From NCBI RefSeq assembly GCF_048403405.1, contig NZ_CP183129.1: DNA of 64,000 bases. The stretch is one strand, 5' to 3'. The stretch's first letter is position 1, and every line of letters starts with the position of its first letter. A program made the position numbers. Below, in pieces: positions 57,101 to 60,100 of the stretch. The stretch is from Escherichia coli. GTDB taxonomy: Bacteria; Pseudomonadota; Gammaproteobacteria; Enterobacterales; Enterobacteriaceae.

Positions 57101-60100
57101 TTAGCCTCGGTCTGGCCTCGTCTTTTAACCTCGATGCGGTGAAAACAGTCGGGCGTGTCTCTGCTTATGAAGCGGCAGATGATGGCCTGAATATGACCTG
57201 GGCACCAATGGTCGATGTCTCGCGCGATCCGCGCTGGGGACGTGCTTCCGAAGGTTTTGGCGAAGATACGTATCTCACCTCAATAATGGGGAAAACCATG
57301 GTGGAAGCGATGCAGGGTAAAAGTCCGGCAGATCGCTACTCGGTGATGACCAGCGTCAAACACTTTGCCGCTTACGGCGCGGTAGAAGGCGGTAAAGAGT
57401 ACAACACCGTCGATATGAGTCCGCAGCGCCTGTTTAATGATTATATGCCGCCGTACAAAGCGGGGCTGGAGGCAGGCAGCGGCGCGGTGATGGTGGCGCT
57501 GAACTCGCTGAACGGTACGCCAGCCACCTCCGACTCCTGGCTGCTGAAAGATGTTCTGCGCGACCAGTGGGGCTTTAAAGGCATCACCGTTTCCGATCAC
57601 GGCGCAATCAAAGAGCTGATTAAACATGGCACGGCGGCAGACCCGGAAGATGCGGTGCGCGTGGCGCTGAAATCCGGCATCAACATGAGTATGAGCGACG
57701 AGTATTACTCGAAGTATCTGCCTGGGTTGATCAAATCCGGCAAAGTGACCATGGCAGAGCTGGACGATGCAGCCCGCCACGTACTGAACGTTAAATATGA
57801 TATGGGGTTGTTTAACGACCCATACAGCCATTTGGGGCCGAAAGAGTCTGACCCGGTGGATACCAATGCCGAAAGCCGCCTGCACCGCAAAGAAGCGCGT
57901 GAAGTGGCGCGCGAAAGCCTGGTGTTGCTGAAAAACCGTCTCGAAACGTTACCGCTGAAAAAATCCGCAACCATTGCGGTGGTTGGCCCGCTGGCAGACA
58001 GCAAGCGTGACGTGATGGGCAGCTGGTCGGCGGCAGGGGTTGCCGATCAATCCGTGACCGTGCTGACCGGGATTAAAAATGCCGTCGGTGAAAACGGTAA
58101 AGTGCTGTATGCCAAAGGGGCTAACGTTACCAGTGACAAAGGCATTATCGATTTCCTGAATCAGTATGAAGAAGCGGTCAAAGTCGATCCGCGTTCGCCG
58201 CAAGAGATGATTGATGAAGCGGTGCAAACCGCGAAACAATCTGATGTGGTGGTGGCTGTGGTCGGTGAAGCACAGGGGATGGCGCACGAGGCTTCCAGCC
58301 GTACCGATATCACTATTCCGCAAAGCCAACGTGACTTGATTGCGGCGCTGAAAGCCACCGGTAAACCGCTGGTGCTGGTGCTGATGAATGGGCGTCCGCT
58401 GGCGCTGGTGAAAGAAGATCAGCAGGCTGATGCGATTCTGGAAACCTGGTTTGCGGGGACTGAAGGGGGGAATGCGATTGCCGATGTATTGTTTGGCGAT
58501 TACAACCCGTCCGGCAAGCTGCCGATGTCCTTCCCGCGTTCTGTCGGGCAGATCCCTGTGTACTACAGCCATCTGAATACCGGTCGCCCGTATAACGCCG
58601 ATAAGCCGAACAAATACACTTCGCGTTATTTTGATGAAGCTAACGGGGCGCTTTATCCGTTCGGCTATGGTCTGAGCTATACCACTTTCACCGTCTCTGA
58701 TGTGAAACTTTCTGCGCCGACCATGAAGCGTGACGGCAAAGTGACCGCCAGTGTGCAGGTGACGAACACCGGTAAGCGCGAAGGGGCGACGGTAGTGCAG
58801 ATGTACTTGCAGGATGTGACGGCTTCCATGAGTCGTCCGGTGAAGCAGCTGAAAGGCTTTGAGAAAATCACCCTGAAACCGGGCGAAACCCAGACCGTCA
58901 GCTTCCCGATTGATATCGAGGCGCTGAAGTTCTGGAATCAACAGATGAAATATGACGCCGAGCCTGGCAAGTTCAATGTCTTTATCGGCACTGATTCCGC
59001 ACGCGTTAAGAAAGGCGAGTTTGAGTTGCTGTAATGCTTTAGTAAGGGCGCGACGTCTGCGCCCTTTAAGTATTTATCTGATTCTGCAACTGAATCCGCC
59101 CAGACAGGCTAACCCTGTCATTATCAACTATGCTTTTCTCTTAATTCGCTGAAAACAACAGTAAAAGAATGAGGAAAGCATCATGCCACTCTCAAAGCTC
59201 TGGGCAGGTTCATTGGTTTTGTTGGCAGCCGTGAGCCTGCCGCTACAGGCGGCTTCCCCGTTAAGGTCGGTTCAAAAATCGATACCGAAGGCGCGCTGCT
59301 CGGCAATATCATTTTGCAGGTGCTGGAAAGTCACGGTGTTCCTACGGTAAATAAAGTGCAACTGGGAACGACTCCCGTGGTGCGCGGGGCGATTACTTCC
59401 GGTGAACTGGATATCTATCCGGAATATACCGGCAATGGGGCGTTCTTCTTTAAAGATGAAAACGATGCTGCGTGGAAAAATGCCGGGCAAGGCTACGAGA
59501 AAGTCAAAAAGCTCGATGCAGAGCAAAACAAGTTAATCTGGCTGACGCCTGCGCCTGCAAATAACACCTGGACCATCGCCGTGCGTCAGGATGTGGCAGA
59601 GAAAAATAAACTCACTTCGCTTGCCGACCTGAGTCGTTATCTGAAAGAGGGCGGCACCTTCAAACTGGCGGCCTCGGCAGAATTTATTGAACGCGCCGAT
59701 GCGTTACCCGCGTTTGAAAAAGCCTATGGCTTTAAGCTCGGTCAGGATCAGTTGCTGTCACTGGCTGGTGGCGACACGGCGGTGACGATCAAAGCCGCTG
59801 CCCAGCAAACCTCTGGCGTTAATGCGGCGATGGCTTACGGCACTGACGGCCCGGTCGCGGCGCTGGGGCTGCAAACCTTAAGCGATCCGCAAGGCGTGCA
59901 ACCTATCTACGCGCCTGCACCAGTGGTGCGTGAGTCGGTGTTGAAAGAGTATCCACAAATGGCACAGTGGCTACAGCCAGTCTTCGCCAGCCTCGATGAA
60001 AAAACATTGCAGCAACTGAATGCCAGCATTGCTGTGGAAGGACTGGATGCCAAAAAAGTGGCTGCCGACTACCTGAAACAAAAAGGGTGGACGAAGTAAT

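What the first reader, a model, noticed from the sequence alone, without database searches (positions are those of the whole stretch)
59255..59265. 1-nt frameshift in osmF (yehZ) immediately after the signal peptide
From the ATG at 59183 the frame encodes a classic signal peptide ending LQAASP, then runs out of frame into a stop about 30 codons later. The mature-protein sequence (VKVGSKIDTEGALLG...) is in the -1 frame and continues intact to 60099. The ATG-to-stop span is 917 nt, one short of the 918 expected for a 305-aa protein plus stop, consistent with a single G missing from the ccccg|gtt junction. The downstream yehYXW genes are intact, so the transporter would lack only its binding protein.
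Basis: partly seen in the sequence, partly recalled or inferred. Interest (0 to 1): 0.5.

Follow-up and report, generated by a model that had tools for sequence, protein, structure and literature searches.

The report
One-base frameshift in E. coli osmF
In this E. coli genome, the gene for the periplasmic glycine-betaine-binding protein OsmF has lost one C from a run of five, which breaks the reading frame just after the signal peptide; this is an ordinary strain-private pseudogene or a base-calling error, not a new biological feature.

Summary
An ATG at 59183 opens a signal peptide, and the frame runs into TAA at 59348-59350 (55 aa). The rest of OsmF continues intact in the -1 frame from 59260 to 60099. 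The ATG-to-stop span is 917 nt, against 918 nt in relatives.

K-12 and the window's closest relatives all read GCT TCC CCC GTT. The window therefore lost a C from a C5 run (now C4, 59256-59259), not a G.

The window belongs to a tight E. coli clone that includes MS 69-1, 4621 and isolate 68. Over the last 25 kb it is identical to two complete genomes except for this one base. Only 1 of 4,715 comparable complete genomes (ETEC1701, a different lineage) carries the same C4 allele, and there it is also private to one tip and annotated "frameshifted".

Restoring the C gives a common 305-aa OsmF found on at least 1,000 contigs. yehY, yehX and yehW are intact.

The best reading is a recent homopolymer-slippage deletion that removes the binding protein and so silences the low-affinity YehZYXW betaine importer. 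A consensus error at the homopolymer cannot be excluded without reads. Interest is low.

The parts
59183..59251 (+). osmF start codon and Sec signal peptide (residues 1-23, MPLSKLWAGSLVLLAAVSLPLQA), preceded by a GAGGA ribosome-binding site at about 59169-59173
   Evidence: Translation. The crystallised mature OsmF (PDB 4WEP) starts at ASPVKVG, which is residue 24. The sequence was read.
59256..59259 (+). The lesion: a C4 run that is C5 in all close relatives and in K-12. The 1-nt deletion falls in codon 26 (Pro) of osmF.
   Evidence: Base-by-base comparison with MS 69-1, strain 4621, isolate 68 and K-12.
59183..59350 (+). Truncated reading frame left by the frameshift: 55 codons (signal peptide, then ASP, then 29 aberrant residues) ending at TAA 59348-59350
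   Evidence: This 55-aa product matches no NCBIfam family and is not in the 15-billion-protein collection.
59260..60099 (+). Remainder of osmF (mature-protein residues 27-305 plus stop), intact but now in the -1 frame with no usable start or signal peptide
   Evidence: Translation. The 261-aa piece scores 459.7 bits on NCBIfam NF049931 OsmF. No Shine-Dalgarno sequence precedes the internal TTG or GTG codons at 59314, 59320 and 59356.
60106..61263 (+). yehY, permease, intact (385 aa)
61256..62182 (+). yehX, ATP-binding subunit, intact (308 aa)
62187..62918 (+). yehW, permease, intact (243 aa)

Best explanation
The feature is a strain-private loss-of-function allele of osmF, caused by contraction of a C5 homopolymer to C4 in codon 26, most likely through replication slippage. 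Translation from the normal ATG produces the signal peptide, three correct residues of the mature protein, and then 29 wrong residues before a TAA stop. No periplasmic binding protein is made. YehYXW is a binding-protein-dependent ABC importer, so the whole low-affinity glycine betaine uptake system is expected to be inactive, and the long untranslated stretch may also lower yehYXW expression. What is shown: the deletion, its position, the truncated frame, its absence from all close relatives, and the intact downstream genes. What is inferred: that the base is really missing in the cells rather than only in the assembly, that the transporter is inactive, and that there is polarity. The confidence given is for 'real mutation, simple pseudogene'.
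For: The window matches MS 69-1 at 99.994% over 64 kb, with a single gap at this site. It is identical to strains 4621 and isolate 68 over 39001-64000 except for this base. All seven nearest complete genomes, and K-12, carry C5 and an annotated intact 918-nt osmF. Restoring the C gives a 305-aa protein seen on at least 1000 contigs. It passes the NCBIfam OsmF equivalog (501 bits against a cut-off of 400), matches Pfam OpuAC, and aligns end to end with PDB 4WEP OsmF. Of roughly 254 homopolymer runs of 5 nt or more, only this one differs in length from the relative, so the assembly is not generally prone to homopolymer errors. The same genome also has a private substitution in psuG, which suggests it is a slightly diverged isolate with mutations of its own. 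The same contraction occurs independently in ETEC1701, where NCBI's pipeline annotates a frameshifted pseudogene. The function of the system, as far as I read it, rests on paper titles and a database table. EcoCyc lists osmF-yehYXW as a glycine betaine ABC transporter and cites Lang et al. [quoted passage not shown] If that description holds, loss of the system is plausibly tolerated.
Against: No read data are available. A one-base length error in a C run is the commonest assembly artefact. Both known occurrences of the C4 allele (this window and ETEC1701) are single tips with no descendants. That pattern fits recurrent consensus error as well as it fits recent mutation. The C4 junction is absent from the GTDB species representatives and from JGI metagenome contigs, and the frameshift products are absent from 15 billion predicted proteins.
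Confidence: 0.62

Rival explanations
1. Sequencing or assembly artefact. The cells carry the normal C5 run and an intact osmF, and the consensus sequence dropped one C at the homopolymer.
For: The lesion is a one-unit length change in a homopolymer. It is the only indel in 64 kb and is unique to this assembly among its clone. The only other occurrence among 5,426 complete genomes is also a lone tip, whose six nearest relatives are identical apart from the 1-nt gap. The allele was never seen in metagenome contigs or in predicted-protein collections.
Against: About 253 other homopolymer runs of 5 nt or more in the window, including 36 C/G runs of 5 or 6, all agree in length with the relative. 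Any error process would therefore have to be rare. A run of five is short for systematic errors. The genome also has a private substitution, which is more typical of real divergence.
Confidence: 0.35
2. Functional recoding. The gene is still expressed as full-length OsmF through -1 ribosomal slippage of tRNA-Pro on C-CCC-G, or through transcriptional slippage at the C run. Alternatively, a signal-less OsmF is made by re-initiation at the GTG at 59356, just after the premature TAA.
For: The only support is what the sequence permits. A -1 shift on the CCG codon back onto CCC would restore ASPVKV. A GTG in the mature frame lies 5 nt after the TAA stop.
Against: There is no conservation at all: every close relative and K-12 encode the protein in one frame. 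There is no X-XXY-YYZ slippery heptamer. Four Cs are far too few for efficient transcriptional slippage (established knowledge). No Shine-Dalgarno sequence precedes the internal starts. Any re-initiated product would lack the signal peptide and at least 35 residues of the mature protein, so it could not reach the periplasm.
Confidence: 0.02

Closest known systems
osmF (yehZ, b2131) of E. coli K-12, the substrate-binding protein of the YehZYXW glycine betaine ABC transporter (PDB 4WEP)
   Same: It sits at the same locus and in the same gene order (dld, bglX, osmF, yehY, yehX, yehW, yohO, mlrA). The repaired protein aligns over all 282 mature residues with 4WEP (E = 1.8e-180) and passes the NCBIfam OsmF equivalog model.
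   Different: One C is missing from the C5 run in codon 26, so the gene as written cannot encode the protein.
osmF pseudogene of E. coli ETEC1701 (NZ_CP122938.1, locus QDX07_RS08210, annotated 'frameshifted')
   Same: It has the identical C5-to-C4 contraction, an identical 71-nt context and the same 917-nt span.
   Different: It is in a different lineage, with 127 substitutions over the surrounding 6 kb. Its own clone mates carry C5, so the two events are independent and not inherited from a common ancestor.
Homopolymer-slippage pseudogenes in general (simple-sequence contraction), including phase-variable contingency loci
   Same: The change is a one-unit length change in a mononucleotide run that switches a reading frame off.
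   Different: A C5 run is too short for high-frequency reversible switching. The run length is fixed at five across 4,714 of the 4,715 comparable genomes, so there is no sign of phase variation.

Membership tests
OsmF, glycine betaine ABC transporter substrate-binding protein (NCBIfam NF049931, equivalog) | Whole-protein score above the curated cut-off of 400 bits | tested here: met
   The repaired 305-aa protein scores 501.4 bits. The 261-aa downstream piece alone scores 459.7 bits.
OsmF, glycine betaine ABC transporter substrate-binding protein (NCBIfam NF049931, equivalog) | A single uninterrupted reading frame that encodes signal peptide plus mature domain, i.e. a functional gene | tested here: not met
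   The frame is broken at codon 26 and reaches a stop after 55 codons. The locus is an osmF gene by descent but a pseudogene as written.
OsmF, glycine betaine ABC transporter substrate-binding protein (NCBIfam NF049931, equivalog) | Genomic context: immediately upstream of yehY-yehX-yehW and downstream of bglX | tested here: met
   The gene order is identical to K-12 and MS 69-1.
OpuAC-type substrate-binding domain (Pfam PF04069) | A match to the domain profile over its full length | tested here: met
   Residues 26-300 match model positions 2-257 of 257, E = 9.8e-60 (on the repaired protein).
Programmed ribosomal frameshift or recoding site | The two-frame arrangement is conserved in relatives and there is a slippery motif | tested here: not met
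   All relatives are in one frame. Only 1 of 4,715 comparable genomes shares the shift. Inspection shows no slippery heptamer.
Phase-variable homopolymer (contingency locus) | Run length is polymorphic among closely related strains, and the run is long (typically 7 or more) | tested here: not met
   The run is 5 nt and is invariant in the window's seven clone mates and in ETEC1701's clone mates.

The most novel reading that the evidence does not exclude
The C5 run in codon 26 of osmF could be a recurrent mutational hot spot at which E. coli lineages repeatedly and independently switch off the RpoS-dependent YehZYXW betaine importer. Two independent tip events have been seen so far. That would hint at selection against the system in some host niches rather than neutral decay or sequencing error.
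Probability: 0.05. Interest if true: 0.25.

Novelty: already known. Interest (0 to 1): 0.06.

Why it matters
It matters very little beyond annotating this strain. If the deletion is real, the isolate lacks a low-affinity, apparently non-osmoregulatory betaine importer, and the major betaine uptake systems lie outside this window. The practical points are that osmF should be annotated here as a frameshifted pseudogene, and that the site is a C homopolymer and so should be verified in reads before any phenotype is attributed to it.

Tried and rejected
1. I looked up the exact frameshift products (55 aa; 261 aa from the TTG start; 259 aa from the GTG start) in the 15-billion-protein collection and found none. 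In the first attempt the DNA references were probably translated without an M at the start. The second attempt used explicit M-start sequences. Other start choices by gene callers were not tried.

2. I scanned for the C4 junction (GGCGGCTTCCCCGTTAARGTCGG) in the GTDB species-representative genomes and in JGI metagenome contigs and found 0 hits in each. The C5 positive control returned only one hit, Escherichia sp. E1V33. That collection holds few Escherichia genomes, so the negative result is weak.

3. The promoter and terminator consensus scan of 58950-60250 found nothing. The reported RpoS-dependent osmF promoter is not a sigma-70 consensus, so this says little either way.

4. I considered and rejected programmed frameshifting, transcriptional slippage and phase variation, because the arrangement is not conserved, the run is short and there is no slippery motif.

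5. I considered re-initiation at internal starts and rejected it as a route to function, because there is no Shine-Dalgarno sequence and no signal peptide.

6. I could not identify the source assembly of the window. None of the 5,426 complete RefSeq E. coli genomes matches the osmF region at 100%.

Full report
What is in the sequence. The region lies in a standard E. coli chromosomal segment with the gene order dld, bglX, osmF, yehY, yehX, yehW, yohO, mlrA. The ATG at 59183 follows a GAGGA ribosome-binding site. From it the frame reads MPLSKLWAGSLVLLAAVSLPLQAASP, then LRSVQKSIPKARCSAISFCRCWKVTVFLR, and stops at TAA 59348-59350, giving 55 codons. The frame that starts at 59260 reads VKVGSKIDTEGALLGNIILQVLESHG... 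without interruption to the stop at 60097-60099. The distance from 59183 to 60099 is 917 nt.

Which base is missing. The window is 99.994% identical over its full 64,000 bases to the complete genome of E. coli MS 69-1 (NZ_CP146675.1), with three substitutions and one gap. A base-by-base walk puts the gap at this site. MS 69-1 reads GGCGGCTTCCCCCGTTAAGG and the window reads GGCGGCTTCCCCGTTAAGG. Strain 4621, isolate 68 and K-12 MG1655 all have the same five Cs, read as GCT TCC CCC GTT = Ala-Ser-Pro-Val. The lesion is thus a contraction of a C5 homopolymer to C4 (window 59256-59259) in codon 26. The crystallised mature OsmF (PDB 4WEP) begins at ASPVKVG. The signal peptide is therefore residues 1-23, and the frameshift falls three residues into the mature protein.

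How unusual the allele is. None of the 5,426 complete RefSeq E. coli genomes matches the 1,011-nt osmF region at 100%. The seven best hits differ only by the one-base gap, and each has an annotated intact 918-nt osmF. Over window 39001-64000, strains 4621 and isolate 68 are identical to the window except for this base. A 71-nt query centred on the site matched 4,715 genomes, and exactly one of them, ETEC1701 from a pig in Belgium, has the C4 form. NCBI's pipeline flags osmF in that genome as a 'frameshifted' pseudogene. ETEC1701 differs from the window at 127 positions in the surrounding 6 kb. Its own nearest relatives are porcine isolates, two of them typed O139:H1, and they are identical to it over 6 kb apart from the one-base gap. 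The same run has therefore contracted at least twice independently, each time on a single terminal branch. The C4 junction was not found in the GTDB species-representative genomes or in JGI metagenome contigs. The C5 control found one Escherichia representative. The frameshift products are not among 15 billion predicted proteins, whereas the repaired 305-aa protein is on at least 1,000 contigs.

What the gene is. With the C restored, the protein passes the NCBIfam equivalog model for OsmF (501 bits against a cut-off of 400) and matches Pfam OpuAC over the whole domain. It also aligns end to end with the solved OsmF structure. yehY, yehX and yehW are intact. They have the same lengths as the annotated genes in relatives, and their DNA is identical to that of strain 4621. 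EcoCyc lists osmF-yehYXW as a glycine betaine ABC transporter. It cites Lang et al. 2015, whose title describes YehZYXW as low-affinity, non-osmoregulatory and betaine-specific (PMC5210515). osmF is listed among RpoS-dependent genes, with Checroun and Gutierrez 2004 cited in that list (PMC10654073). I read only these citing passages, not the two primary papers.

Most likely mechanism and consequences. The simplest account is a replication-slippage deletion of one C. Translation from the native start gives a 55-residue pre-peptide with no binding domain. The downstream OsmF coding sequence has no start codon with a Shine-Dalgarno sequence and no signal peptide, so no periplasmic binding protein should be made. 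Binding-protein-dependent ABC importers need their binding protein (established knowledge). The whole YehZYXW system should therefore be inactive, not merely 'lacking its binding protein'. The premature stop also leaves 755 nt untranslated ahead of yehY, which may allow Rho-dependent polarity. This is an inference and was not tested. If the system is indeed low-affinity and non-osmoregulatory, its loss would plausibly cost the cell little.

Real mutation or artefact. This cannot be settled from the sequence. Three things favour a real change. First, about 253 other homopolymer runs of 5 nt or more in the window, including 36 C/G runs, agree in length with the relative, so the assembly is not generally error-prone at homopolymers. 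Second, the genome also carries a private substitution in psuG (Ala212Pro) that is absent from all 482 comparable genomes, which suggests a slightly diverged isolate. Third, five bases is a short run for systematic error. Two things favour an artefact. A one-unit homopolymer length change is the archetypal consensus error. Both known C4 alleles are lone tips that were never inherited. I put about 0.62 on a real pseudogene, 0.35 on an artefact, and about 0.02 on any form of functional recoding.

Rejected readings. Programmed frameshifting and transcriptional slippage are rejected because the two-frame arrangement is not conserved in any relative, there is no slippery heptamer, and four Cs are too few. 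Phase variation is rejected because the run is short and invariant among clone mates.

Verdict. This is a known gene with a trivial and well-understood type of lesion, already annotated as a frameshifted pseudogene in the one other genome that has it. It is not novel and is of low interest. The useful outcomes are the correction of the missing base (C, not G), the demonstration that the change is private to this genome within a very tight clone, and the caution that it lies in a homopolymer.

Noticed in passing
window 32139-34118 (+), stop at 32865-32867: cirA, the catecholate siderophore and colicin Ia/Ib receptor, has an in-frame TGA at codon 243. MS 69-1 has the same stop, and its record annotates cirA as a pseudogene with an 'internal stop'. 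Unlike the osmF change, this is a lineage-level pseudogene.
   Followed up: partly
window 21229 (psuG, + strand): The window has C where MS 69-1, M217 and RIVM_C037791 have G, which changes Ala212 to Pro in pseudouridine-5'-phosphate glycosidase. None of 482 comparable complete genomes shares the window's allele, so it is the window's only other private change in 64 kb.
   Followed up: partly
window 11456 (yeiQ) and 53526 (yohC): The other two differences from MS 69-1 are private to MS 69-1 and not to the window. Other relatives carry the window's alleles: M217 and RIVM_C037791 at 11456, and strain 4621 and isolate 68 at 53526. In MS 69-1 they change YeiQ residue 421 (Val in the window, Asp in MS 69-1) and YohC residue 145 (Tyr in the window, His in MS 69-1).
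   Followed up: yes
window 21607-22874 and 24794-26061: The nucleoside transporter paralogues psuT and nupX are about 80% identical at the DNA level within the window. They appeared as secondary BLAST alignments.
   Followed up: no
window 59356 (GTG, mature osmF frame), 5 nt after the premature TAA at 59348-59350: A GTG in the OsmF frame sits just downstream of the new stop codon. Termination-reinitiation there could keep ribosomes on the mRNA and soften polarity on yehYXW, but the product would lack a signal peptide. No Shine-Dalgarno sequence is present.
   Followed up: no
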